This document shows positions 45,708 through 64,000 of a stretch of DNA of 64,000 nt, piece by piece. Source of the stretch: Candidatus Margulisiibacteriota bacterium (GTDB lineage: Bacteria > Margulisbacteria > WOR-1 > JAHJIW01). The position numbers and the translations under genes were made by a program. The stretch is from assembly GCA_018823125.1 (NCBI GenBank), contig JAHJIW010000005.1:67562-131561 (forward strand), in the 5' to 3' direction. The notes below the pieces were generated by a model that was given only the letters and a program-made list of their open reading frames with translations, was not told the origin of the DNA and ran no database searches. How positions within the stretch are numbered: position 1 is the first letter of the stretch; each line of letters starts with the position of its first letter.

Positions 45708-45712
45708 TGCAT

Positions 45713-45785
45713 GCCCCCGTAGCTCAGTGGATAGAGCAGCGGTTTCCTAAACCGTTGGTCGGAGGTTCAACTCCTCTCGGGGGTA
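45713..45785 (+). tRNA. tRNA-Arg (anticodon CCU)
   Basis: 73-nt cloverleaf folded by hand: 7-bp acceptor stem, D-stem GCTC/GAGC, anticodon stem GCGGT/ACCGT with loop TTCCTAA (U33, anticodon CCT, A37), T-loop TTCAACT. CCA not encoded; followed by a T-run. Confidence 0.85.
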
Positions 45786-45788
45786 TTT

Positions 45789-46259: not shown

Positions 46260-46364
46260 ACTTATCAACTCCTTTATTAAATTATACACCGAAAAGATTG
46301 ACACAAAAAGATCCGGGTGGCACAATATTTACACGGCGGTGAGTTTTTTTGCCGTGGTGATAAA

Positions 46365-47006: not shown

Positions 47007-47074
47007 GGTTTTCTTTATTGACATTAAAAATATTGAATGGGAAAATACTATTAATTCTAAAGGGGAGGTAAACA

Positions 47075-47623
47075 ATGAAAGTATTAAAATGGATCCTGAT
47101 TATTGTTTTGGTTCTGGTACTGCTCCTGATTGCGTTTCTGGCTTACATGGGGATGATTTTACCGTTGAAAATTAATGAAACTAAGATGGGCCCTTATACC
47201 ATTGCCTACGAAAGCTTTACCGGCCCTTACGCAGAGACGGGACCGGTTTTTGATAAAGTTTACAAAGCATTAAAAGCAGAAGGGATCGGTTCCACTAGAG
47301 GGCTTGGTATTTATTACGATAATCCGAGCAATGTGCCAGCGGACAAGCTGCGTAGTGACTGTGGCGTAATCATTGAAGCTGCAGACCTGGCTAAGTTTAA
47401 TAAAGTAAGAAGAAAATTTAAAATTAAACAAATTCCGCAAGGCGACTGCGTGGTAGTAGAATTTCCGCTGCGCAACATGCTTTCTTACATGATGGGGCCG
47501 ATGAAAGTTTATCCAACGCTGATGAAATATATTCAGGCGAAAGGTTATAAAGTTTCGATGTCCTATGAGCTTTATGATGAACTGCAGAAGAAAATTTATT
47601 TTGTGATGGGGATTACGAAGTAA
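47075..47623 (+). CDS. Membrane-anchored GyrI-like / effector-binding domain protein
   Basis: N-terminal TM helix followed by a roughly 150 aa domain resembling GyrI-like small-molecule-binding domains. A TTGACA-N17-GAAAAT element lies upstream at 47018-47046. Confidence 0.5.
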   Translation: MKVLKWILIIVLVLVLLLIAFLAYMGMILPLKINETKMGPYTIAYESFTGPYAETGPVFDKVYKALKAEGIGSTRGLGIYYDNPSNVPADKLRSDCGVIIEAADLAKFNKVRRKFKIKQIPQGDCVVVEFPLRNMLSYMMGPMKVYPTLMKYIQAKGYKVSMSYELYDELQKKIYFVMGITK

Positions 47624-54678: not shown

Positions 54679-55731
54679 GTGAAAAAGTTAATCGTACTGG
54701 CTCTCTGTTTAGTTTATCTTGCCCCAATTGCTCAAGCCGGCTCGATTGGCGGGATGCCTTACGTTATATACAACTCAACCTACGGTGCAGAATACGGCCT
54801 GATTGGCCGGCTGAGAAATTACCTGGGATATCACGAATCGCTGACCCTGTCGGCTACCTTGATTGAGAACGGAGGCAACATCAATAATTTTGTGCTTTCT
54901 TTTCCGGATCAGGATTACCGGCACGGTCAAGTTTTTGACCTGGCGGTTGACGTTGAAGGGGCCGTCGGCACCTACATTAACGAAAGATATTACGGATTGG
55001 GAAGCAATACTCCGGGAACCAATTACACGACCTTTAACAATGGGCACAGCCGCGTCAATATTATCCTGACGCGCGCCTACCAAAGCAATTTTTCTCTGGC
55101 GGTCGGTCTGCTGCTGGCGGGTAATTCCTTTTCCAATATTACGCAAGGGGTTAATCCCTTGACGCAAAATGCCCAGGACATCTGCTCAAAATATTACGCG
55201 GGAAGCTTGGGGCTAACCCTGGATAATCGGGATAACAGCATGGATCCGCACGGCGGCAATTATATTTTAACTGATTTTGATTACGGGATTACGGCCGCCG
55301 GGAGTCCGGTGAAATATGCAAAGCTGACGACCGATTTGCGGCGTTACGACACGCCGTTCCAAAAAGACCAGGTCCTGGCCAGCCGGGTGATGCTGGCCAC
55401 GATGACGGGAGATGTCATTCCGATATACGAATATGCTTCGCTAGGCGGGCGTGATACTTTACGGGGCTACGCCATGGACCGCTTCCGCGATAAAAGCGCC
55501 GCCCTGATCAATCTCGAATACCGTTTTCCGATTATCTGGGTTTTTAGCGCTGCGGTTTTTTACGAAGCCGGAAAAGTTGCTCCGCTGCTGACGGATATTG
55601 GATTTAATGATTGGGCCTCTGACTACGGGGCCGGACTGCGCATCAATTTTGGCAATGTAATCGTGCGTGGAGACTTTGGTCGCAGCAGTGAAGGAACCAA
55701 CGCCTACTTTTTCTACAATCAGGCGTTTTGA
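54679..55731 (+). CDS. Omp85 (BamA/TamA) family outer-membrane beta-barrel protein, barrel only
   Basis: Signal peptide ending IAQA; C-terminal barrel pattern with LGGRDTLRGY and terminal residues ...NQAF. GTG start. Confidence 0.6.
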   Translation: MKKLIVLALCLVYLAPIAQAGSIGGMPYVIYNSTYGAEYGLIGRLRNYLGYHESLTLSATLIENGGNINNFVLSFPDQDYRHGQVFDLAVDVEGAVGTYINERYYGLGSNTPGTNYTTFNNGHSRVNIILTRAYQSNFSLAVGLLLAGNSFSNITQGVNPLTQNAQDICSKYYAGSLGLTLDNRDNSMDPHGGNYILTDFDYGITAAGSPVKYAKLTTDLRRYDTPFQKDQVLASRVMLATMTGDVIPIYEYASLGGRDTLRGYAMDRFRDKSAALINLEYRFPIIWVFSAAVFYEAGKVAPLLTDIGFNDWASDYGAGLRINFGNVIVRGDFGRSSEGTNAYFFYNQAF

Positions 55732-56918
55732 TCGTCCCGCCGGATAACTAACGGCCCTTTGGTTGCTTTCATGATGTGGGACACCGGCAGATTATTTTGC
55801 CACAACTGAACCATGCCCCGCATGTATTTATTGATGTGACTGAAATATTTTTTATAGCCGGCGCAGAGGTAATTTAATCCCGGCTCATCCGATGGAGTTT
55901 TTAGGAAGCGCCGTTTGGGACATTCTCCGCGGCAGGCAAAAAGGTAAGTGCATTTTTTACAGTACTGCGGTAATTTGTCCGCTTTAGCCGCGCCAAAGTT
56001 TTTCTGTTTTGGCAGTTCAACCAGATCCTTAAGCTGATCTTTTAGGACATTGCCCAGCAGATATTCCGGATAAACAAAGTGGTCGCAGGAATAAACATCG
56101 CCGTTATGTTCGATCACCAGCGACCGGCCGCACTCAGGCGCAAAGAGGCAAAGCGGGGCAGGGTTGCCGGCCCAGTTATTTAAAGCCCATTCAAAGTTCA
56201 TGACGAAAATTTTGCCGACGTCGTGTCTGACCCATTGATCAAAGATTGCAATCAGGAAATCACCATATTTCTCCGGTTCAACTGACCAGGGTGTAATCAT
56301 GCCGTTTGGATCGCGCTCAACCACGGCGGTAAATTGAACAAACTCAACCCCTTCGCTTTTCAAGAACGCATAGACTTCCAAAGGTTTGTAAGCGGTTTCT
56401 TTGGCAACGCAGGCCAGCACGTTAAATTCGACACCGTGTTTTTTAAGCAGGCGCAATCCTTTGATAACTGCATCAAAGGTTCCGCGGCCCGAGCGATCTT
56501 TGCGGTAAATATCATGAATCTCTTTGGTCCCGTCCAGACTGATGCCGACAAAAAAATTATTCTTGCTTAGAAATTCTGCCCATGCATCATTGAGCAGTAC
56601 GCCGTTGGTTTGCAGTGAGTTTTTGATCTTGTTGCCTTGCTGGTATTTCTTTTGCAGTTTAAGGACCTGGCGGTAAAAAGCCAGGTCCGCAAGCAGGGGT
56701 TCTCCGCCGTGCCAGACAAATTCTACTTCTGCCTGCGGCTGGGATTCGAGGTACTGGCGGATAAAAGCTTCCAGCACCTCGCCGGTCATGCGGAAATTTT
56801 TGCCACTGGGGAAAAGTTTTTCTTTTTCCAGGTAAAAGCAGTAATCGCAGTTTAAATTGCAGGCCGGACCAACCGGCTTTGTAATCACATGAAAACTGGC
56901 AGGTAACTGATTAGCCAT
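55719..56918 (-). CDS. Anaerobic sulfatase-maturating enzyme (radical SAM/SPASM)
   Basis: CNLNCDYC radical SAM motif near the N-terminus and C-terminal Cys clusters (CKKCTYLFACRGECP). Confidence 0.85.
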   Translation of the reverse strand: MANQLPASFHVITKPVGPACNLNCDYCFYLEKEKLFPSGKNFRMTGEVLEAFIRQYLESQPQAEVEFVWHGGEPLLADLAFYRQVLKLQKKYQQGNKIKNSLQTNGVLLNDAWAEFLSKNNFFVGISLDGTKEIHDIYRKDRSGRGTFDAVIKGLRLLKKHGVEFNVLACVAKETAYKPLEVYAFLKSEGVEFVQFTAVVERDPNGMITPWSVEPEKYGDFLIAIFDQWVRHDVGKIFVMNFEWALNNWAGNPAPLCLFAPECGRSLVIEHNGDVYSCDHFVYPEYLLGNVLKDQLKDLVELPKQKNFGAAKADKLPQYCKKCTYLFACRGECPKRRFLKTPSDEPGLNYLCAGYKKYFSHINKYMRGMVQLWQNNLPVSHIMKATKGPLVIRRDDQNA

Positions 56919-56919
56919 T

Positions 56920-58557
56920 TTATGGAACTTGCAGTCCGACCTTTTTAGGCGGATATTTTTTAAAAGAGAGCAGGTGGCGCTGGCCCTCCAGGTTCATGGG
57001 TACGATAGTCCACTCGTACTGTCCGCCTTGACCCGGATAACGTTCTTTGGGATCACGATACAGGCTGTAGGTCCAGGGATAAAGGGTATCGAGCACCAGG
57101 GTGTTCTGCCAGCCGCCGTTGCTGGAATAAGACATATTATCGACCGCGTTAATTTTTAAATGCGACTTAAATTCGCGCCAGCGCAGGGCCATAAAATCAT
57201 ATTGGTTCCAGACAAAGATTGATTGGCGATTGGATTCACCGTTGTCTGAAAGTAAAAATGATGTTTGGTTAATGCCGTCATAGTAGCGGTCTTTGGGCAG
57301 CTTCTGCCAGCTGACCCCGCCGATGGCCAGCGAAGTGTTGAAGAGGTCCATCAAATCGAACAGGCCGTCGGAATCCCGGCCGCCCTTAATCATGCCCGGC
57401 CAGTATGCAATACCGGGGATACGAATGCCGCCTTCCCAGGTATGTCCTTTGGCTCCGCGGAAGGGGGTTACGCCGCAATCATAATATGCGCTTTCTTCCG
57501 GACCATTGTCTGAAGTGACAAAAACAAAAGTATTTTCTGCCTGTCCGGTTTCCTCAAGTACTTTGATCAGCTTTCCGATGATGTCATCTACTTCAACCAC
57601 CGCATCCTTGTAAGGAGTTCCTGCCGGGCTTTTACCCTGATAGCCCTCGGCCGGCCAGTTGTCAAAATGTACTTTGGCGGTAGCGTGAATCAGGTAAAAA
57701 GGCTGATTTTTTTCTGCCTGTTTGTGAATAAATTGTTCGGAAAATTTCAGGAAATCCTGGTCGCAATTAGCAATGCCTTCGATATCCAGCAGTTTAACGT
57801 CTTCCTTGAAGCCGCCTTTTTTCGCGTGAATAATATGGTTATCAAAACCTTTGTGAAGATAGGTTTCCCTCAACAGCGGGTGGTTAACCAGTTCGGGATA
57901 GCGCCGCACATCCCAAGGTGGAGTGTATTCGGCGGTTACAACCAGAAAGCCGTAAAACTCATCATAACCGTTATCCTGCGGCTCTAACCCTTTGCCTTCA
58001 CCGAGATGCCATTTTCCTGATAAAGCGGTAGTGTATCCTGCCTTGCCTAATATCTTGGCGGCAGTCTGTTCATCGGACCAAGGGTTGCGGGTTAGTTTTT
58101 CTCCTGCCATGATCGGACGGATCAGGCCGGTGCGCGCCGGCAAACGTCCGGTCATAAGAGAAGCGCGCGTAGGCGTTGACATCGGTTGAGAATAACAGGA
58201 TGTTAGCCGTAAACCTTGCTCAGCCAGACGGTCCATGTTTGGAGTAGGTGCGCCCACCGCATTTCCACCACCGTAGCAACCCGGATCCCCCCAACCCATA
58301 TCGTCCACTACAATAATTAAAATATTGGGTTTTCTTCCCAAACGTTTTTCTAAAGCATTTAGTTTGGCGGCCGCTTCCTCCTGCTGTTTAGGATGCGGAA
58401 TGACCGGTTCCATGTTAGAGGTGAAAGGAACCGCGGGTAAAAATGGATTAGGTTGCATGTCAGCTGCCTTAACCCCTGATCCGGTCAGGCTGGTTACTGC
58501 GGTTGCGATTCCGGCGATCGCTGCGATTGCTGCATGTTTTTTGTTCATAAATGCCAC
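56920..58557 (-). CDS. Sulfatase (arylsulfatase family), Ser-type active site
   Basis: Signal peptide; IIVVDDMGWGD metal-binding region; signature S-T-P-T-R-ASLMTGR, i.e. Ser rather than Cys at the formylglycine position. Confidence 0.85.
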   Translation of the reverse strand: MAFMNKKHAAIAAIAGIATAVTSLTGSGVKAADMQPNPFLPAVPFTSNMEPVIPHPKQQEEAAAKLNALEKRLGRKPNILIIVVDDMGWGDPGCYGGGNAVGAPTPNMDRLAEQGLRLTSCYSQPMSTPTRASLMTGRLPARTGLIRPIMAGEKLTRNPWSDEQTAAKILGKAGYTTALSGKWHLGEGKGLEPQDNGYDEFYGFLVVTAEYTPPWDVRRYPELVNHPLLRETYLHKGFDNHIIHAKKGGFKEDVKLLDIEGIANCDQDFLKFSEQFIHKQAEKNQPFYLIHATAKVHFDNWPAEGYQGKSPAGTPYKDAVVEVDDIIGKLIKVLEETGQAENTFVFVTSDNGPEESAYYDCGVTPFRGAKGHTWEGGIRIPGIAYWPGMIKGGRDSDGLFDLMDLFNTSLAIGGVSWQKLPKDRYYDGINQTSFLLSDNGESNRQSIFVWNQYDFMALRWREFKSHLKINAVDNMSYSSNGGWQNTLVLDTLYPWTYSLYRDPKERYPGQGGQYEWTIVPMNLEGQRHLLSFKKYPPKKVGLQVP

Positions 58558-58620
58558 CTTCTTTATTAATTATTCAAATTCTACTCCATCCCCACAAAAA
58601 ATCAATTACTCTTTCCTTCA

Positions 58621-58649
58621 TTGACATCAAAATAGGGTAGTGGGAGAAT
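58621..58649 (+). promoter_or_regulatory. Sigma-70-like promoter (TTGACA-N17-GAGAAT), copy 1 of a conserved ~40-bp block
   Basis: Block CTTTCCTTCATTGACATCAAAATAGGGTAGTGGGAGAATA at 58611-58650; RBS AAGGAGG and ATG 21 nt after the -10. Confidence 0.5.
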
Positions 58650-58670
58650 ATCCTTACAAGGAGGTGACAA

Positions 58671-58874
58671 ATGAAAATTGTTATTAAGATTTCGATGTGG
58701 ATACTGGTTATTGGTGGATTGGCCTGGGGTCTGGAAGGTTTAACTGAGATAAATATTTTTGACGTGGTCATTTTATCCGTTGCGCCTCACATTGTTGAGA
58801 ACGCAGTTGAGGTTATCATCGGTTTGGCTGCTTTGATAGGAGCCTATGCTCTGATCGTAAAGAAAGAAGCATAA
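58671..58874 (+). CDS. DUF378-like small membrane protein
   Basis: 67 aa; GGLAWGLEGL motif resembles the DUF378 GGLNWGL signature; strong RBS AAGGAGG. Confidence 0.65.
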   Translation: MKIVIKISMWILVIGGLAWGLEGLTEINIFDVVILSVAPHIVENAVEVIIGLAALIGAYALIVKKEA

Positions 58875-58876
58875 TC

Positions 58877-58920
58877 TTCCAGGGCTGCGAGGAGCAAAAC
58901 TCTTCCCAGCCCTGATTTCT
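58877..58920 (+). terminator. Rho-independent terminator
   Basis: Imperfect GC-rich inverted repeat CCAGGGCTGCGAGGAG...CTCTTCCCAGCCCTG followed by ATTTCTTT. Confidence 0.5.
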
Positions 58921-58936
58921 TTAAGGAGGGTTTTAT

Positions 58937-60073
58937 ATGTTAAAGAAATGTTTAGGTGCGGTTTTGATCCTGGTTCTCTTCCTCTCGGTTTCTGCTTCCG
59001 CGCTGGTTTTTAAGACCGGTGATTCGATCACGATTCCCAAAGGCGAAGTTATCAATGACAACCTTTTTGTATCCGGCAATATGGTTACGATCAACGGGAC
59101 AGTAAGAGGAAACCTTTTGGCCTTTGGAAGCACCGTAGTGATTAATGGCAATATTTCCGGAAGCGTCATTTCCGGTGGTCAGGATGTTAGCATTTCCAGC
59201 CGGTTAAATAACTTATTAGTTGGTGGTAGAACGGTTAGCATTTCCGGCCAGTCAAACAACGTAATCGTCGGCGGAGAAACGGTCAACATCAGCGGATCCG
59301 TGAGTAAGGACCTGATTGCGGGTGGCAAACAGATTATTCTGCAAAAAAGTTCTAAGATTGGCGGGGACGCATTTCTGGGTGCCAGAGACACTAATGTTGC
59401 TGGAAAAATTGGCCGCAATTTAAATATTGGCAGTAATAATATAATTATTGATTCAGCCGCATCGGTAAGGGGGAATTTCACTTATACTGCCCAGAAGCCG
59501 GTCATTTCAGATCAGGCCAAGATAGCTGGAACGGTTACCATAATGGCTCAACCTAAGCCGGTTGAAAAATCTCCCCAGCTCATGTCAGGCTGGTTCTCAT
59601 TCCAAAAGGTTATCGGATTTCTGATGATCTTGTTATTAGGTATATTGATCATTATCTTTATGCCGCATCAAGTTGAATTAGTAACCGATAAAATGAGAAA
59701 ACATTGCTGGAGAAGTTTCGGTTGGGGAATTTTGGCATTGATTGTTCTGCCGATAATTGCGGTTCTGCTGATGATCACCTTAGTTGGAATTCCATTAGGA
59801 ACCATTCTCTTATTCGCTTACCTGGTTGGTGCCTACATAGCATCGATCTTTGTAAGTATTGTTATCGGGAAATGGATCTTGGATAAGGTTGGCAAGTCCA
59901 ATATTTCTTTGATCTGGTCACTTTTACTTGGTTTGATCATACTTAATATTGTGGGCCTAATCCCGATTATCGGAGGCTTGGTCATTTTCGTATTATTCCT
60001 GTGGGCCTTTGGTGCGTTGGTAGCGACTCGTCCTACTACTTATGTTGAGGCTCGCGACGCTAAAATTCTCTAA
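58937..60073 (+). CDS. Bactofilin-like beta-helical repeat domain fused to a C-terminal polytopic membrane domain
   Basis: Signal peptide; repeated G-x-V/I-x-I-x-G units over about 180 aa; C-terminal about 150 aa with four hydrophobic helices. Confidence 0.55.
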   Translation: MLKKCLGAVLILVLFLSVSASALVFKTGDSITIPKGEVINDNLFVSGNMVTINGTVRGNLLAFGSTVVINGNISGSVISGGQDVSISSRLNNLLVGGRTVSISGQSNNVIVGGETVNISGSVSKDLIAGGKQIILQKSSKIGGDAFLGARDTNVAGKIGRNLNIGSNNIIIDSAASVRGNFTYTAQKPVISDQAKIAGTVTIMAQPKPVEKSPQLMSGWFSFQKVIGFLMILLLGILIIIFMPHQVELVTDKMRKHCWRSFGWGILALIVLPIIAVLLMITLVGIPLGTILLFAYLVGAYIASIFVSIVIGKWILDKVGKSNISLIWSLLLGLIILNIVGLIPIIGGLVIFVLFLWAFGALVATRPTTYVEARDAKIL

Positions 60074-60077
60074 AAAG

Positions 60078-60725
60078 CTAATTGAGGTTAACTTTTAGAA
60101 ATAAATCGCCGCGTTTATGACAGAGGGGACATTCATTTCCCCAACCCCTTAAACGCAGTTTGGTTCCGTCGGTGGTTCCTTTAGGAACTTTAACCGTTAA
60201 AGTTTTTCCTTCGGCCATTCTAAGATCAACTTTACCGCCTTGTGCGGCTAGGCTGCGGGGAATTTTAGCGTTGATCATTACATCGGTAGAGACGGCATCG
60301 GGTTTAACATTGACCCGGTAGCCACCTTGAGTGCCCCCGGCAGCTCCCCCAAAAAATTGTGAAAAAGCATCATCGTACATATCGTAATCCATGGTGCTGT
60401 GACACTTGTGTTGTCTACCTCGGCGATGAGTAAATCCAAGATGGGAGAGGAGATCTTCAAAATCAAAACCTTGGGCTGGATCAACTCCACCTCTAGCTCC
60501 CGCGGCAGCGCCCATCTTGCGCTGGTCATCATATTCTTTTCTTCTTTGAGGATTACCTACAACGTAATATGCTTCAGAGATCTTTTTAAATTTTTCTTCC
60601 GCGGCAGACTTGTCACTCTGATGCATATCGGGATGATATTTTTTGGCGAGCGTGCGATAAACGCTTTTTATTTCATCCTGGGTGGCGCTTTCTGATACTC
60701 CTAATACTTTATAGTAATCTTGCAT
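60078..60725 (-). CDS. J-domain (DnaJ-like) protein
   Basis: N-terminal J domain with HPD motif (YYKVLGV...KYHPDMH); Gly-rich linker; C-terminal domain with CPLCH. Confidence 0.7.
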   Translation of the reverse strand: MQDYYKVLGVSESATQDEIKSVYRTLAKKYHPDMHQSDKSAAEEKFKKISEAYYVVGNPQRRKEYDDQRKMGAAAGARGGVDPAQGFDFEDLLSHLGFTHRRGRQHKCHSTMDYDMYDDAFSQFFGGAAGGTQGGYRVNVKPDAVSTDVMINAKIPRSLAAQGGKVDLRMAEGKTLTVKVPKGTTDGTKLRLRGWGNECPLCHKRGDLFLKVNLN

Positions 60726-60753
60726 GGTTTATTTTCCTGCTTTCACATAACAG

Positions 60754-61278
60754 CTAGCGGCCAAAATTTTGCACAGTGGTAATATTTCCGTTAGGAATTG
60801 AATATTTAGTGCCATCGTCGGCCTTGAGAATAGTCAGGCGCAGACTCATGTCAGCGACTTTCCCTTTTATTCCCATGATCTGGACGGTATCCCCAATAGA
60901 GTACTGTTTTTCCAGGATAATGAAGAAGCCGGAGATAAGGTCTCTGACCAGGTTTTGGGAGCCGAAGCTGACAGCCAGTCCCAGGATACCGGCGCTGGCG
61001 ATCAAGGCCGTGATGTTAACGCCCAGTTGCTGCATGGTAGTGATGAACATTACAAAAAATACGCCATATCTAAGGATACTGCGCACGAGGGAAGCGATGA
61101 TATTGAGCCGGTTTTCGGACAAACGGTCTCTGAGCGCGCGGTCCATAGCTACTATAACGATCCGATAAAATACATAGATAACTGCCAGAGAAACGATGAT
61201 CGCGAGGGCTTTCATGATGTAGGCGACCATTTTTTCCGGAGAAAAGAGCACAGTTTTCATTTCATTGAAAATGTCCAT
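60754..61278 (-). CDS. Small mechanosensitive channel, MscS family
   Basis: 174 aa; pore-helix-like GVNITALIASAGILGLAVSFGSQNLVRDLISG followed by a beta domain. Confidence 0.7.
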   Translation of the reverse strand: MDIFNEMKTVLFSPEKMVAYIMKALAIIVSLAVIYVFYRIVIVAMDRALRDRLSENRLNIIASLVRSILRYGVFFVMFITTMQQLGVNITALIASAGILGLAVSFGSQNLVRDLISGFFIILEKQYSIGDTVQIMGIKGKVADMSLRLTILKADDGTKYSIPNGNITTVQNFGR

Positions 61279-61337
61279 GATAAGGATATACTAGCATTTT
61301 TTGATGAAGGGAGGCAAATGCATGCGCCTTTCTTTCA

Positions 61338-61366
61338 TTGACATCAAAATAGGGGAGTGGGAGAAT
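61338..61366 (+). promoter_or_regulatory. Sigma-70-like promoter (TTGACA-N17-GAGAAT), copy 2 of the conserved block
   Basis: CCTTTCTTTCATTGACATCAAAATAGGGGAGTGGGAGAATA, near-identical to copy 1; ATG at 61398. Confidence 0.5.
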
Positions 61367-61397
61367 AGTATACCTAAAAAAATGAAAGGGGTTTTAA

Positions 61398-62936
61398 ATG
61401 ATAATTAAAAAAATTTCACTTTGCATGCTGCTTCTGGTGTTTATTTCAATGCTTTTTGCCCAAACAGTTTCGGCAGAGGAATTCGCCTACTCCAAAAAGG
61501 TGGATGCTCTGGTCGCAGAACTTGAAGCTGACGGATTCATTGTCCAGGAAAGCGGCTACCAGATGATCGACATCCTTAAGCTTTGCAGTGAAGGGTGGTT
61601 TGAATACTGCTTTGGCAATAACGCCGGCTTCCCCTATCTCTGCTATACCATGCCGCCGGCACCCGGACAAAAACCATCCCGCGGTCAAAACCCGCCAGTA
61701 GGTTTTGACCCAAAAGACCCGAATAATTATCCGGCAAACCTTGATTTTACCCCGCCGGGTACAACCTTTAAGCTGCGTCCGGATGAAGCTATTCTCCTGG
61801 TGGGCAAGACCCCGCCTCAAGCCCGTTATTTCAGTTACCGCAGCTATGTTGGCTTTGTGGAAAATAAGCCGGGCAAAGATTATTCTGATATCTTTGTTGT
61901 TAACTCTGCTGACGGCGCGGCCTATCACCGCGTCTTTGCCAGCCTGGGCGACCCGCTCAATCATTTGAGTCCCAATACCAGCGGCACCCCTGATCACAGC
62001 GCAGGCAATGCCTTTGACAAGGAAATAGTGCTCATCACCACGCCGCACCAAGGCGTTAACCAACGCGTGCGCCAGGCTATAAAAAAATCCGGTATTTCTG
62101 AATCCATTGTCAACGATGACATTATTCCCGCTTCACTGGTCAACCTGGGACTGGAAGATGGAAAAGATACTTTTTTGGTTATAACCCGCGCTGCTCTCTG
62201 GGAAAACAATGAACAAGGCCAGGCTTTTTTAAATGACCCCACCAAGACCTGCCGGGTTTTTCGCATTACTCCGAAAGAAGAGCTGGCGGCTGATCCCTAT
62301 CCTGTTCCAAAACTTAAACAACGCGGCAATGGTATATCCGAATTTAAAATCCTGCCCACTGCCAAAGATGATCTGGAAACACTGCGAGAGGCAATCCTGA
62401 AAAAGCACGGCTTGCCCCAATACAAAACCAGGGAGCTGCACACTGATATCTGGCTGCCTGAAGGTTTTATTGGCATCTGCGATGACCTGGACATCCTGGC
62501 TGAGGACCGCGACACTGTTTATCTTCAGAGCGAGGACTTTCAACTTAAGTCAGATGATGATTTTATTATTGTCTACGGCGTAAATCATGAAAAAACCGGC
62601 AAGGCCATCTACTGCAACTTAAGCTTTTACGGCAAAGAGCTGATCAATGGTGTAGCTGGCTCCAACAGCTCCCTCTTCACTGGTTCAGCCAGGGAATATT
62701 TTCCAGCTGGGTATGAGAACGCGGATAATTATTATGTGGTTAAGCTTGCCCGCAAAGGTGATGACTGTGTGATCGTTGAAAAAAGCACGGATAACCCGCG
62801 CGGCAAGGCTTATGGAGTGGACAACAACAAAGATTCTTATATCATAACCCGCTCCTATATTGAAAAACCGAACCAGGTCGGTCCAGCCCATTATGAGCTG
62901 ATCTACGACCGGACGATCCTTTTCACAAAGAAATAA
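61398..62936 (+). CDS. Hypothetical secreted protein (512 aa), no family recognised
   Basis: Signal peptide MIIKKISLCMLLLVFISMLFAQTVSA; GC-richer than core genes by eye; preceded by the conserved promoter block. Confidence 0.5.
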   Translation: MIIKKISLCMLLLVFISMLFAQTVSAEEFAYSKKVDALVAELEADGFIVQESGYQMIDILKLCSEGWFEYCFGNNAGFPYLCYTMPPAPGQKPSRGQNPPVGFDPKDPNNYPANLDFTPPGTTFKLRPDEAILLVGKTPPQARYFSYRSYVGFVENKPGKDYSDIFVVNSADGAAYHRVFASLGDPLNHLSPNTSGTPDHSAGNAFDKEIVLITTPHQGVNQRVRQAIKKSGISESIVNDDIIPASLVNLGLEDGKDTFLVITRAALWENNEQGQAFLNDPTKTCRVFRITPKEELAADPYPVPKLKQRGNGISEFKILPTAKDDLETLREAILKKHGLPQYKTRELHTDIWLPEGFIGICDDLDILAEDRDTVYLQSEDFQLKSDDDFIIVYGVNHEKTGKAIYCNLSFYGKELINGVAGSNSSLFTGSAREYFPAGYENADNYYVVKLARKGDDCVIVEKSTDNPRGKAYGVDNNKDSYIITRSYIEKPNQVGPAHYELIYDRTILFTKK

Positions 62937-62962
62937 GAGCATAAAAAATCGCGGGCAGAAGA

Positions 62963-63829
62963 ATGCGGCCCCCTTGCGAAAGAGGTGTGAAAATAAAATC
63001 GAATCGATTTATATTATTAGGCTGGGTCTTCATTTTTATTTTAGCGCTTTCTTCCAGCTGCTTGGCAGACCAAGGCTATGGCACATTAAAGGTTTTTACA
63101 GAGATTAAAGGCTCATCAATATATGTTGACGGGGAACTGGCCGGGCACGACACTGTAATAATTAAACAAATAGAACCAGGAACACATTATGTAAAAGTAG
63201 AAGCATCAGGAAAGATCTATTACGATGAAGTTGTTACTGTTGTTGAAAATGAAACTGAAACGGTTTTGGTAAAGGATCCTGCTCCTGCTGCTGTGGTTGC
63301 TGCTCACGCACCTGCACCGGCGAGCGTAATTACGAACTACCTTAATTTTTTTGCTAATTATTCGGACTTAAGTCTTTCTGAGAATGTTTCCGGGGTCAAC
63401 AAAAATTATGGTTATGATCCTGCTTTTGGCATTGGAGTGGAATACAATAAAGGGATAGCTGCTACGAATTTTGGGGCCAATATGGGGATCAATTATAATT
63501 TCCCCTCCAATGTTACTTTGTCCGGATTTTCAGGGGGAAGGAGCCTGGGGATCTCCCATATTTATTTTAATCTTGTTTCAAATGCCGGAAAAAACGATGA
63601 TCTGGAAATGAATTTTGCTATCGGGCTTAATTATTCGTTTTGGGCTGTTTCATCCCCTCTTTCAACCATTAATGGCGGCGTCGGATATCAGGGCTATTAT
63701 GAGTTCCTGATCCCTTCAGGCAATAATTATTACAGCGTTAAAATAGGGCACGCGACATTTTACAGTTCGTCAAACACGAGCACGCAAAGCAGTTCGGGGT
63801 TGTTCCTGAAAGGCGGATTCGCCTATTAG
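62963..63829 (+). CDS. PEGA-domain secreted protein with beta-rich C-terminal region
   Basis: Signal peptide; PEGA-like block (KVFTEIKGSSIYVDGELAG...GTHYVKVEASG); aromatic C-terminus (GGFAY). Start codon uncertain (possible in-frame GTG at 62987). Confidence 0.5.
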   Translation: MRPPCERGVKIKSNRFILLGWVFIFILALSSSCLADQGYGTLKVFTEIKGSSIYVDGELAGHDTVIIKQIEPGTHYVKVEASGKIYYDEVVTVVENETETVLVKDPAPAAVVAAHAPAPASVITNYLNFFANYSDLSLSENVSGVNKNYGYDPAFGIGVEYNKGIAATNFGANMGINYNFPSNVTLSGFSGGRSLGISHIYFNLVSNAGKNDDLEMNFAIGLNYSFWAVSSPLSTINGGVGYQGYYEFLIPSGNNYYSVKIGHATFYSSSNTSTQSSSGLFLKGGFAY

Positions 63830-63867
63830 CCCCCAATTTATATTGACAGGGACTGGCCCTTTCTTCA

Positions 63868-63896
63868 TTGACAACAAAATAGGGGAGGGGAGAATA
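63868..63896 (+). promoter_or_regulatory. Sigma-70-like promoter, copy 3 of the conserved block (1-nt shorter)
   Basis: CTTTCTTCATTGACAACAAAATAGGGGAGGGGAGAATA; followed by the same RBS context (AAGGAGGTGACAAATG) as copy 1. Confidence 0.45.
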
Positions 63897-63915: not shown

Positions 63916-64000
63916 ATGAAACTTCTTATCAAGATTTCGTTATGGTTACTGGTTTTGGGTGGATTGGCCTGGGGGTTAGAGGGGTTAACTGAGATAAATA
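63916..64000 (+). CDS. DUF378-like small membrane protein paralog, 3' end outside window
   Basis: Translation MKLLIKISLWLLVLGGLAWGLEGLTEIN is near-identical to the 58671..58874 product. Confidence 0.6.
   Translation, partial: MKLLIKISLWLLVLGGLAWGLEGLTEIN

What the first reader, a model, noticed from the sequence alone, without database searches (positions are those of the whole stretch)
58611..63896. Three near-identical ~40-bp promoter-like blocks within 5.3 kb, plus degenerate copies elsewhere
CTTTC(C/T)TTCATTGACA(T/A)CAAAATAGGG(G/T)AG(T)GGGAGAATA occurs at 58611-58650, 61327-61366 and 63859-63896, each 20-50 nt upstream of a start codon. Weaker relatives (TTGACA-N17-[G/C]A[A/C/G]AAT with an A-rich spacer start) occur at 46298, 47018 and 53786. 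The conservation extends well beyond the -35/-10 hexamers, so it suggests a shared operator or a duplicated expression cassette driving genes for exported or membrane proteins.
Basis: seen in the sequence. Interest (0 to 1): 0.55.

Follow-up and report, generated by a model that had tools for sequence, protein, structure and literature searches.

The report
Locally copied promoter module, Margulisbacteria island
The three repeated 40-base blocks are real and belong to a family of at least seven copies of one complete bacterial promoter, duplicated in front of successive, mostly unrelated genes in an accessory region of an uncultured groundwater bacterium; this is a tidy example of promoter re-use and not a new kind of element.

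Summary
The window matches a Candidatus Margulisbacteria MAG (GCA_018814585.1). The block is CTTTCyTTCA-TTGACA-17 nt-(TGG)GA(G/A)AAT-A. It occurs at 58611, 61328 and 63859, with a diverged copy at 47008. Three more full copies and one truncated copy lie within 3.3 kb beyond the window end. All copies are intergenic, on the + strand, and point at a downstream gene. Between non-paralogous genes, similarity always stops at the -10 box. The sites at 46298 and 53786 are not members.

The strict block was absent from 185,579 reference genomes and from viral contigs. It occurred nowhere else in the source metagenome. It is therefore a local family and not a genome-wide regulon.

DUF378 homologues in other metagenomes keep CATTGAC and TGGGAGAATA but not the spacer. 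The promoter elements are therefore under selection, and the shared spacer reflects recent copying. An operator in the spacer is not supported. In a relative about 89% identical in DNA, synteny breaks two bases after a copy's -10 box.

Best reading: sigma-70-type extended -10 promoters spread by local duplication and recombination ("putative mobile promoters"). Transcription itself is untested. This is a new member of a known kind, of modest interest.

The parts
58611..58650 (+). Copy c1 of the promoter block. -35 TTGACA at 58621-58626, 17-nt spacer, TG at 58641-58642, -10 GAGAAT at 58644-58649. It heads DUF378a-DUF8173.
58589..58610 (+). Upstream extension of c1 (TCCCCACAAAAAATCAATTACT), shared with copies c5, c7 and c8 beyond the window. 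On the minus strand it supplies the -35-like TTGATT (58605-58600) of a TTGATT-16-TAGAAT promoter-like site facing the sulfatase gene.
61328..61367 (+). Copy c2. -35 at 61338-61343, -10 GAGAAT at 61361-61366. It heads the 512-aa secreted protein gene and the PEGA gene. Its flanks are unrelated to those of c1.
63859..63896 (+). Copy c3. -35 at 63868-63873, 16-nt spacer (the T of the TG is deleted), -10 at 63890-63895. It heads DUF378b.
47008..47047 (+). Diverged copy c6 (TTGACA-17-TGGGAAAAT, about 78% identical to c1). It heads the GyrI-like 182-aa gene.
58671..58874 (+). DUF378a, a small membrane protein gene. It is part of the duplicated unit that starts at the 5' edge of c1.
58880..58914 (+). 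Hairpin CAGGGCTG...CAGCCCTG that closes the duplicated unit. The same hairpin follows DUF378b and its orthologue in L036.
58937..60073 (+). DUF8173 / bactofilin-like membrane protein gene, probably co-transcribed from c1.
61398..62936 (+). 512-aa secreted protein gene of a widespread family with no Pfam match, downstream of c2.
62963..63829 (+). PEGA-domain protein gene, probably in the c2 transcription unit.
63917..64000 (+). 5' part of DUF378b (paralogue of DUF378a; 56 of 67 residues identical; dS about 0.42). It runs off the window end.
47075..47623 (+). GyrI-like protein gene with a hydrophobic N-terminus, downstream of c6.
45712..45786 (+). tRNA-Arg(CCT). It marks the boundary between the core genes and the accessory region that contains every copy of the block.

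Best explanation
The blocks are paralogous copies of one complete sigma-70-type promoter. Each has a perfect -35 TTGACA, a 17-nt spacer, a TG-extended -10 box TGG-GA(G/A)AAT, and a pyrimidine-rich stretch upstream.

RNA polymerase holoenzyme would bind each copy and start transcription about 7 nt after the -10 box. That gives short Shine-Dalgarno leaders for DUF378a, DUF378b, the 512-aa gene and the GyrI-like gene. It gives (nearly) leaderless mRNAs after copies c8 and c5.

The module is the ancestral promoter of the DUF378 gene, within the divergent sulfatase/DUF378 intergenic region. It spread by local duplication and recombination among copies. It now heads six consecutive + strand transcription units, plus one outlier, in an accessory region next to tRNA-Arg.

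The -35 and extended -10 parts are kept by selection. The identity in the spacer and upstream stretch is a sign of recent common descent and not a binding site.

Shown: the anatomy, copy number, orientation, sharp homology limits, local confinement, cross-species footprint and mosaicism. Inferred: that the copies are transcribed, which sigma factor is used, and the mechanism of copying.
For: 1. Anatomy. All 7 full copies have TTGACA and GGGA(G/A)AAT. Six of 7 have TG at -15/-14. Spacers are 16-18 nt. They are among the best consensus matches in the region.

2. Placement. All 8 copies are intergenic (about 6% of the DNA by crude ORF calls; c8 abuts the DUF5674 start codon and the longest-ORF call overlaps it) and lie on the + strand. 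Seven face a co-directional ORF and the truncated c7 abuts the 3' end of the minus-strand Fic gene.

3. Homology limits. Pairwise homology begins at -34 to -41 or at -62 and ends within 0-4 nt of the -10 box for every pair except the gene duplicates c1/c3. The copied unit is therefore exactly a promoter.

4. Cross-species footprint. DUF378 homologues at 70-79% amino-acid identity (L035, L037, L038) keep T.CATTGAC and G.GGGAGAATA plus the Shine-Dalgarno sequence, with unrelated spacers. The 76% orthologue of the 512-aa gene keeps TTGTAA-17-TGaGAGAATA and its leader but not the spacer.

5. Spacer drift. Spacer identity to c1 over the 14-15 aligned spacer columns is 14/14 for c5, 13/14 for c2, 12/14 for c3, 10/14 for c4, 6/14 for c6 and 4/15 for c8, while the hexamers stay invariant. 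DUF378a/b have dS about 0.42.

6. Mosaicism. Copy c5 matches c8 on the left (37/38) and c1 in the spacer (14/14), which points to recombination between copies.

7. Local confinement. The strict pattern gave no related hit in 185,579 species genomes. In the source metagenome it matched only the five strict copies on this contig. Viral contigs gave only generic single hits. A family profile found nothing else in the 72.9 kb available.

8. A distinct class. Other intergenic promoters of this MAG are TGnTAnAAT without TTGACA. TGn[G/C]AnAAT in intergenic DNA occurs only in block copies.

9. Known kind. Copies c1/c5 (67 nt, 87%) meet the published criterion for putative mobile promoters (PMC3488235).
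Against: No transcription start data exist, so promoter activity is inferred from sequence only.

The -12 position is G (or C) in every copy and never the consensus T. G-13, G-12, G-10 and A-6 are invariant across DUF378 promoters of four lineages. That is more constraint than a plain housekeeping -10 box needs and may mean a specialised sigma factor or an overlapping factor site.

Only 72.9 kb of the roughly 300-kb contig, and none of the other contigs, could be scanned with a sensitive profile. Diverged copies elsewhere cannot be excluded.

The comparison of block divergence with synonymous divergence rests on small counts (4/40 against 17/67) and is not significant by itself.

Most copy pairs are shorter than the 50-nt threshold of the published mobile-promoter definition.
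Confidence: 0.62

Rival explanations
1. A regulon-type control element. The extended block, or its invariant CATTGACA / TGGGAGAATA parts, is recognised by a dedicated factor: an alternative or group-2 sigma factor, or a repressor/activator. The locally encoded HTH-HATPase(RsbW-like)-STAS-like(DUF4325) protein would be a candidate. The cluster would then be switched on and off as one unit.
For: Positions beyond the canonical hexamers are invariant in DUF378 promoters of four lineages: CA before the -35, and G-13, G-12, G-10 and A-6. G or C replaces T at -12 in all copies and in the 512-aa orthologue's promoter. This promoter class differs from the TGnTAnAAT class used elsewhere in the window. 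One copy (c4) precedes a gene that combines an HTH, an anti-sigma-kinase-like HATPase and a STAS-like domain. Six adjacent units share the promoter.
Against: The spacer, the natural place for an operator, is not conserved across species. It drifts among the paralogous copies. No conserved dyad or direct repeat is present; TTGAcaTCAA is broken in c3, c4 and c6. TTGACA-17-TGn is the textbook housekeeping architecture, and group-3 or ECF sigma consensus sequences recalled from memory do not fit. The c4 orthologue in L036 has TGaCAAAAT, so GGGAGAAT is not obligatory. No sigma gene was seen among the genes annotated near the cluster. The strict sites are confined to 8.3 kb.
Confidence: 0.2
2. A promoter-bearing recombination junction. 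The 40-62-nt element would be both a promoter and a preferred crossover or insertion site, so that incoming genes are placed directly behind a ready-made promoter. This would be an integron-like cassette logic with one promoter per cassette.
For: In the relative about 89% identical in DNA (L036), synteny with this genome runs through c3, DUF378b, the hairpin and the c4-like block and stops 2 nt after the -10 box. There a leaderless membrane-protein gene replaces the 1.84-kb HTH-DUF4325-SnoaL segment. A relic of that gene's 5' end survives after SnoaL (score 48 against a maximum of 34 in 300 shuffles). Copy c5 is a mosaic, c7 is truncated exactly at the -35, and c5 and c8 abut start codons without leaders. 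The neighbourhood is a patchwork of small unrelated genes, a toxin-antitoxin-like Fic/HTH pair and gene fragments.
Against: Only one alternative arrangement was found. No integrase or transposase is annotated in the 73 kb seen. The element shows no hairpin or attC-like structure; folding z-scores are -0.03 to +1.47, none better than shuffles. No target-site duplication was seen. For c1, c2 and c3, homology with orthologues continues through the 5' UTR, so there the promoter belongs to the gene. Ordinary homologous recombination between 40-60-nt direct repeats explains the data without a dedicated system.
Confidence: 0.1
3. Inert repeats. The blocks would be neutral leftovers of segmental duplications that merely resemble promoters.
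For: Copies c1 and c3 are part of a roughly 310-bp duplication. Copy c5 heads only a 31-codon relic and c7 is truncated. Simple consensus scans find many promoter-like sites by chance (46 found against 32 expected).
Against: The -35 and extended -10 parts are invariant while spacers diverge, both among paralogues and across species at saturated divergence. Homology limits coincide with promoter limits. Orientation and distance to start codons are consistent in every case.
Confidence: 0.05
4. A structured nucleic-acid element: a REP, MITE or attC-type repeat, or a cis-regulatory RNA such as a riboswitch or leader.
For: It is a short intergenic repeat. There is a weak 5-nt terminal complementarity CCCAC/GTGGG in the extended copies and a 7-nt inverted repeat in c8.
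Against: Folding energies are no better than shuffles. No Rfam family matches at E <= 1 apart from one chance hit elsewhere in the stretch. All copies have one orientation relative to genes. The shared sequence ends before the predicted transcription start, so it is not part of the RNA.
Confidence: 0.02

Closest known systems
Putative mobile promoters / promoter propagation (Matus-Garcia, Nijveen & van Passel, NAR 2012, PMC3488235; PMC3575422)
   Same: Highly similar non-coding stretches lie immediately upstream of non-homologous genes within one genome, with no homology in the flanking coding sequences. The family is species-specific. Most downstream genes are hypothetical.
   Different: Most copies here share only 34-41 nt, below the published cut-off of at least 50 nt. 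Only c1/c5 (67 nt, 87%) pass; c1/c8 (64 nt, 77%) falls just short. The family is tightly clustered (6 full copies plus one truncated copy within about 8.6 kb) instead of dispersed. The homology is delimited exactly by the -35 upstream region and the -10 box.
Extended -10 (TGn) sigma-70/sigma-A promoters
   Same: TTGACA, a 17-nt spacer, TG at -15/-14, and A-11, A-9, A-8 and T-7 are all present.
   Different: Position -12 is G or C, never T, and -10 is G or A. The flanking bases (G-13, A-6, CA before the -35) are conserved across species. The rest of this genome appears to use TGnTAnAAT without a strong -35.
Repeated early or middle promoters of phage genomes and repeated promoters of genomic islands
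   Same: Several near-identical promoters head successive transcription units in one direction.
   Different: There are no phage genes. No related sequence was found in 2.9 million viral contigs beyond generic single promoter matches.
Integron cassette arrays (attC sites between cassettes)
   Same: A short repeat lies between small unrelated genes in a variable region, and one synteny break falls exactly at the repeat.
   Different: There is no attC-like hairpin, no R''/R' core sites and no integrase. The repeat carries a promoter, whereas integron cassettes are normally promoterless.
Promoter-carrying MITEs (for example Correia elements of Neisseria)
   Same: A short repeated intergenic sequence that supplies -35/-10 boxes to neighbouring genes.
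   Different: There are no terminal inverted repeats of useful length, no target-site duplication, a single orientation, and local instead of genome-wide distribution.

Membership tests
Sigma-70-type extended -10 promoter | -35 hexamer close to TTGACA | tested here: met
   TTGACA is exact in all 7 full copies and in truncated c7. L035 has TTGACT.
Sigma-70-type extended -10 promoter | 16-18 nt spacer and a -10 hexamer with A at position 2 and T at position 6 | tested here: met
   Spacers are 17 nt in c1, c2, c4, c5 and c6, 16 nt in c3 and 18 nt in c8. The -10 box is GA(G/A)AAT in all copies.
Sigma-70-type extended -10 promoter | TG at -15/-14 | tested here: met
   Present in 6 of 7 copies; c3 has lost the T. 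Also present in L035, L037, L038, L036 and L013.
Sigma-70-type extended -10 promoter | T at -12 (consensus TATAAT) | tested here: not met
   Position -12 is G in all copies and C in the L036 second block. This is tolerated in extended -10 promoters (my own background knowledge) but is atypical.
Sigma-70-type extended -10 promoter | Transcription actually starts 5-9 nt downstream | not testable with these tools
   No RNA data are available here.
Putative mobile promoters (PMC3488235) | Upstream regions align over more than 50 nt at 80% identity or more | tested here: inconclusive
   c1/c5 align over 67 nt at 87% (met). c1/c8 align over 64 nt at 77%. All other non-paralogous pairs align over 34-44 nt at 73-95% (not met).
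Putative mobile promoters (PMC3488235) | Downstream and upstream coding sequences are not homologous | tested here: met
   Pfam content differs: DUF378, 512-aa protein, HTH-HATPase-DUF4325, DUF5674, GyrI-like. Alignments stop at the -10 box except for the gene duplicates c1/c3.
Transcription-factor operator / regulon site | A conserved site (dyad or direct repeat) retained in front of orthologues | tested here: not met
   The spacer and far-upstream parts are not conserved in L035, L037, L038 or L013. Only the -35 and -10 regions are conserved.
Transcription-factor operator / regulon site | Sites dispersed over the genome in front of a gene set | tested here: not met
   The strict pattern occurs only in the 8.3-kb cluster of the source metagenome contig. 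Sensitivity is limited to near-exact copies.
Integron attC site | Imperfect palindrome that folds as single-stranded DNA | tested here: not met
   DNA folding z-scores run from -0.03 to +1.47.
Integron attC site | Neighbouring integron integrase | tested here: not met
   No integrase domain appears among the genes annotated from 39.7 to 72.9 kb. The rest of the contig was not seen.
MITE / REP element | Terminal inverted repeats, target-site duplication, both orientations | tested here: not met
   Only a 5-nt CCCAC/GTGGG complementarity was found. All copies are on the + strand and no duplicated flanks were seen.
Rfam cis-regulatory RNA | Match to a covariance model | tested here: not met
   cmscan at E <= 1 over L001 6900-16000 gave one chance hit elsewhere in the stretch.

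The most novel reading that the evidence does not exclude
The block would be a dual-purpose element: a ready-made promoter whose 3' edge, just after the -10 box, is a preferred junction for gene gain and loss. New genes would be plugged in as leaderless or short-leader units and expressed at once. This would be a promoter-per-cassette counterpart of the integron, in a candidate phylum. Alternatively, or in addition, the invariant TGGGAGAATA box could define the specificity of a so far uncharacterised Margulisbacteria sigma factor controlled by the adjacent HTH-RsbW-like-STAS-like fusion protein.
Probability: 0.1. Interest if true: 0.7.

Novelty: new member of a known kind. Interest (0 to 1): 0.3.

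Why it matters
If the reading is right, the locus is a clean natural example of promoter re-use in an uncultured candidate phylum. It shows the exact copied unit (from about -62 or -40 to the -10 box) and signs of recombination between copies. It also shows one strain-level gene swap directly behind a copy.

It gives a first sequence-based picture of two promoter classes in Margulisbacteria: TGnTAnAAT without a -35, and TTGACA-17-TGGGAGAATA. That could help in designing expression tools or interpreting metatranscriptomes of these organisms.

It does not reveal a new regulatory principle.

Tried and rejected
- **Genome-wide regulon.** The strict pattern scan of 185,579 species genomes returned only two unrelated hits, from Eubacteriales and Dysgonomonas. 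This MAG is evidently not in that collection. The JGI metagenome scan returned only the source contig plus chance hits, one of them a terminator hairpin.
- **Phage origin.** A looser pattern in viral contigs gave 16 single generic promoter or chance matches. None matched the whole block in the profile search.
- **Structured DNA or RNA.** No folding signal and no Rfam match.
- **Defence-island context.** PADLOC hits only for the neighbouring Fic/HTH pair and none for genes behind the blocks.
- **Synteny in other Margulis/Saganbacteria-like relatives via DUF8173 homologues (46-53%).** No DUF378 neighbour and no block-type promoter.
- **Alternative sigma consensus sequences recalled from memory** (sigma-B/F GTTT..GGGTAT, sigma-H, sigma-28, sigma-32, ECF, cyanobacterial J-box). 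None fits in both box and spacing. This rests on memory only and was not a test.
- **Strain polymorphism as a selection test.** The six assemblies differ by only 2-4 SNPs, so there is no power.
- **Possible 11/13-nt terminal inverted repeat (AGTTTTgaAGTGT / ACACTAAAACT)** at the ends of the 1.84-kb segment missing in L036. I saw this by eye and did not evaluate it statistically, so it carries no weight.
- **Literature searches** for the assembly accession, yuzA regulons and DUF4325 gave nothing usable.


Full report
**Observation**

The three blocks are at 58611-58650, 61328-61367 and 63859-63896. The 21-nt core matches three times at up to 3 mismatches, against 0.01 expected in shuffles. Each block ends 20-30 nt before an ATG with a Shine-Dalgarno sequence.

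The repeat finder independently adds 47008-47047 at 70% identity. The sites at 46298 and 53786 share only TTGACA plus an A-run. A profile built from the family does not report 46298 and scores 53786 at E = 7.7.

**Source and extent**

The 512-aa protein behind copy 2 is encoded, with the same neighbours, on contigs from NCBI (GCA_018814585.1 at 301 kb, and GCA_018825025.1), ENA, JGI (3300014656) and Logan. NCBI names the organism Candidatus Margulisbacteria bacterium. These assemblies differ from each other by 2-4 SNPs in 21.5 kb.

Locus L001 continues 8.9 kb past the window end (L001 coordinate + 51397 = window coordinate). It holds more copies:
- c4 at L001 12772-12811
- c8 at L001 14752-14793
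- c5 at L001 15487-15526
- a copy truncated right after the -35 (c7) at L001 15740-15777.

So there are six full copies and one truncated copy within about 8.6 kb, plus c6 11.6 kb upstream. All are on the + strand and all are intergenic. They head these units:
- DUF378a-DUF8173
- the 512-aa protein and PEGA
- DUF378b
- HTH-HATPase-DUF4325 (and SnoaL)
- DUF5674 and a 98-aa ORF
- a 31-codon relic ORF
- the GyrI-like gene, for c6.

Every copy lies downstream of tRNA-Arg(CCT) at 45712-45786. That tRNA separates core genes (leuA, lysA, cdaA, panB) from an accessory region.

**Anatomy**

Aligned, the copies read yyTTCyTTCA-TTGACA-(17 nt)-TGG-GA(G/A)AAT-A. TTGACA and GGGA.AAT are invariant in the seven full copies. 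TG at -15/-14 is present in six.

Four copies (c1, c5, c7, c8) also share a 22-nt upstream extension, TCCCCACmAAAAAkCAAT. In c1 this extension supplies, on the other strand, the -35-like box of a TTGATT-16-TAGAAT site facing the sulfatase gene.

Local pairwise alignments start at -34 to -41 or at -62. They end within 0-4 nt of the -10 box for every pair except c1/c3.

c1/c3 are the heads of a roughly 310-bp duplicated unit (promoter, DUF378 gene, hairpin). Its left limit is the left limit of the block.

The sequence has no secondary structure beyond shuffles and no Rfam match. The shared part ends before the predicted transcription start. It is therefore a DNA signal and not an RNA.

**Is it simply the consensus promoter of this organism?**

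No. Nine of the 18 TGnTAnAAT matches in 72.9 kb lie in the roughly 6% of DNA that is intergenic. Those sit in front of ordinary genes without a TTGACA. TGn[G/C]AnAAT in intergenic DNA occurs only in block copies. The block is therefore a second promoter class.

**Is it a genome-wide regulon?**

The strict pattern TTGACANNAAAANNGGGNAN{1,2}GGGANAAT gave only two unrelated hits in 185,579 species genomes. In the JGI metagenomes it matched only the five strict copies on the source contig, plus chance matches. A looser pattern in viral contigs gave single generic promoters only. The near-exact family is therefore local. Diverged copies elsewhere in the MAG could not be searched for.

**Selection or ancestry?**

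Homologues of DUF378 at 70-79% amino-acid identity were found on short metagenome contigs L035, L037 and L038. They carry T.CATTGAC(A/T)-N14-TGGGAGAATA followed by the Shine-Dalgarno sequence, with unrelated spacers.

The 76% orthologue of the 512-aa gene (L013) has TTGTAA-17-TGaGAGAATA and a homologous leader, again with an unrelated spacer. The 68% orthologue has none of this.

So the -35 and extended -10 regions are under purifying selection. That is good indirect evidence that they are real promoters.

Among the paralogous copies, spacer identity to c1 over the 14-15 aligned spacer columns falls from 14/14 (c5) to 4/15 (c8) while the hexamers stay fixed. The DUF378 paralogues have dS of about 0.42. 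This pattern fits a series of duplications of different ages.

Copy c5 is a mosaic: its left 38 nt match c8 (37/38) and its spacer matches c1 (14/14). This points to recombination between copies.

**A strain-level gene swap**

Contig L036 is 625 nt, from the ENA sample that also holds this strain, and is about 89% identical in DNA. It starts inside a block. It continues through the DUF378b orthologue and the hairpin into a c4-like block (TTGACAgcaaaattgaagagTGaCAAAAT).

Similarity to this genome stops 2 nt after that -10 box. In L036 a membrane-protein gene starts 6 nt after the box. In this genome a 1.84-kb segment with the HTH-HATPase-DUF4325 and SnoaL genes follows instead.

A relic of the L036 gene's 5' end survives directly after SnoaL, at L001 14650-14715. 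Its alignment score is 48, against a maximum of 34 in 300 shuffles.

Gene content has therefore changed exactly behind a block. This fits either ordinary recombination among 40-60-nt direct repeats or a more specific junction function. One case cannot decide between them.

**Mechanism**

The most likely reading (0.62) is a family of sigma-70-type extended -10 promoters. It derives from the DUF378 promoter region and was spread by local duplication and recombination. Each copy drives its downstream unit. In c8 and c5 the ATG lies 9 and 6 nt after the -10 box, so those mRNAs would be (nearly) leaderless. The same appears true for MscS and for the proximal promoter of the HTH gene.

A dedicated factor, whether a special sigma or a regulator, remains possible (0.2). 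G replaces T at -12 everywhere, and G-13, G-10 and A-6 are invariant across four DUF378 lineages. However, the L036 variant TGaCAAAAT shows that the box is not obligatory.

The junction or cassette idea gets 0.1. Inert repeats get 0.05. Structured elements get 0.02.

**Comparison with known kinds**

[quoted passage not shown] Most other pairs are too short. The features of integron attC sites, MITE/REP elements, operators and riboswitches were tested and not met.

**Verdict**

The operator part is not. This is a new member of a known kind, of modest interest (0.3). Its most interesting loose ends are the synteny break at the -10 box and the unusually constrained TGGGAGAATA box.

Noticed in passing
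window 45712-45786, and 45.8 kb onward: tRNA-Arg(CCT) marks a switch from core biosynthetic genes (leuA, lysA, cdaA, panB) to an accessory, island-like region. That region holds DUF6790, SfLAP, GyrI-like, amidohydrolase, three AAT/C45-like genes, Omp85, and a sulfatase with its radical-SAM maturase. GC is raised to 0.47-0.51 at 48-58 kb. No integrase was seen.
   Followed up: partly
window 7223(-), 7265, 32497(-), 32615, 34455(-), 36853(-), 41230, 52527(-), 54663: Ordinary intergenic promoters of this MAG appear to be TG-extended -10 boxes (TGCTATAAT, TGCTAAAAT, TGCTAGAAT) with weak or no -35. Nine of 18 matches fall in the roughly 6% of DNA that is intergenic.
   Followed up: partly
L001 12920-12972 (window-equivalent 64317-64369): The leader of the HTH-HATPase-DUF4325 gene holds a perfect inverted repeat TTGTCAA-N4-TTGACAA. 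It overlaps a second promoter-like site (TTGACA-18-TACAAT). A third TTGACAA lies at the start codon. This looks like an autoregulatory operator.
   Followed up: no
L001 14650-14715 (window-equivalent 66047-66112): A pseudogene relic (MLIWLPRIH*) of the 5' end of the membrane-protein gene that follows the c4-like block in relative L036. It lies directly after the SnoaL stop codon.
   Followed up: yes
L001 12807 (window-equivalent 64204): One of only 2-4 SNPs among six assemblies of this strain falls in the -10 box of copy c4 (GAGAAT in GCA_018814585.1, GAAAAT in the others). These are the two variants seen across the family.
   Followed up: partly
L001 14797-14805; L001 15526-15534; window 61278-61304 (-): Several genes have their ATG only 3-11 nt after a -10 box and no Shine-Dalgarno sequence: DUF5674 after c8, the c5 ORF, MscS, and the HTH gene from its proximal promoter. 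This suggests that leaderless mRNAs are common in this organism.
   Followed up: no
window 61398-62936: The 512-aa secreted protein belongs to a large family (589 hits at E <= 1e-5, typically 45-60% identical) in Clostridia, Deltaproteobacteria, Aminicenantes and others. It has no Pfam domain.
   Followed up: partly
window 59186-59281: A tandem 48-nt repeat (75% identical) inside the DUF8173 / bactofilin-like gene. It reflects the repeated beta-helix-like units of the protein.
   Followed up: no
L001 15783-16828 (-) and 16946-21148: A Fic-domain protein with an XRE-type HTH partner matches the PADLOC candidate systems PDC-S04 and SoFic. It is followed by Zincin_1, split YgjP-like fragments, hemerythrin and cupin genes, which make a decaying, patchwork neighbourhood.
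   Followed up: partly
L042 3' end; L036 5' end: Independent short-read assemblies break inside block copies: L042 ends in the c8 extension and L036 starts within a block. The repeats limit contig length, and copies elsewhere may be under-assembled.
   Followed up: no
window 55719-58557 (-): A sulfatase (545 aa) sits next to a radical-SAM/SPASM protein, consistent with an anaerobic sulfatase-maturating enzyme pair. Its promoter-like site overlaps the upstream extension of block c1.
   Followed up: no
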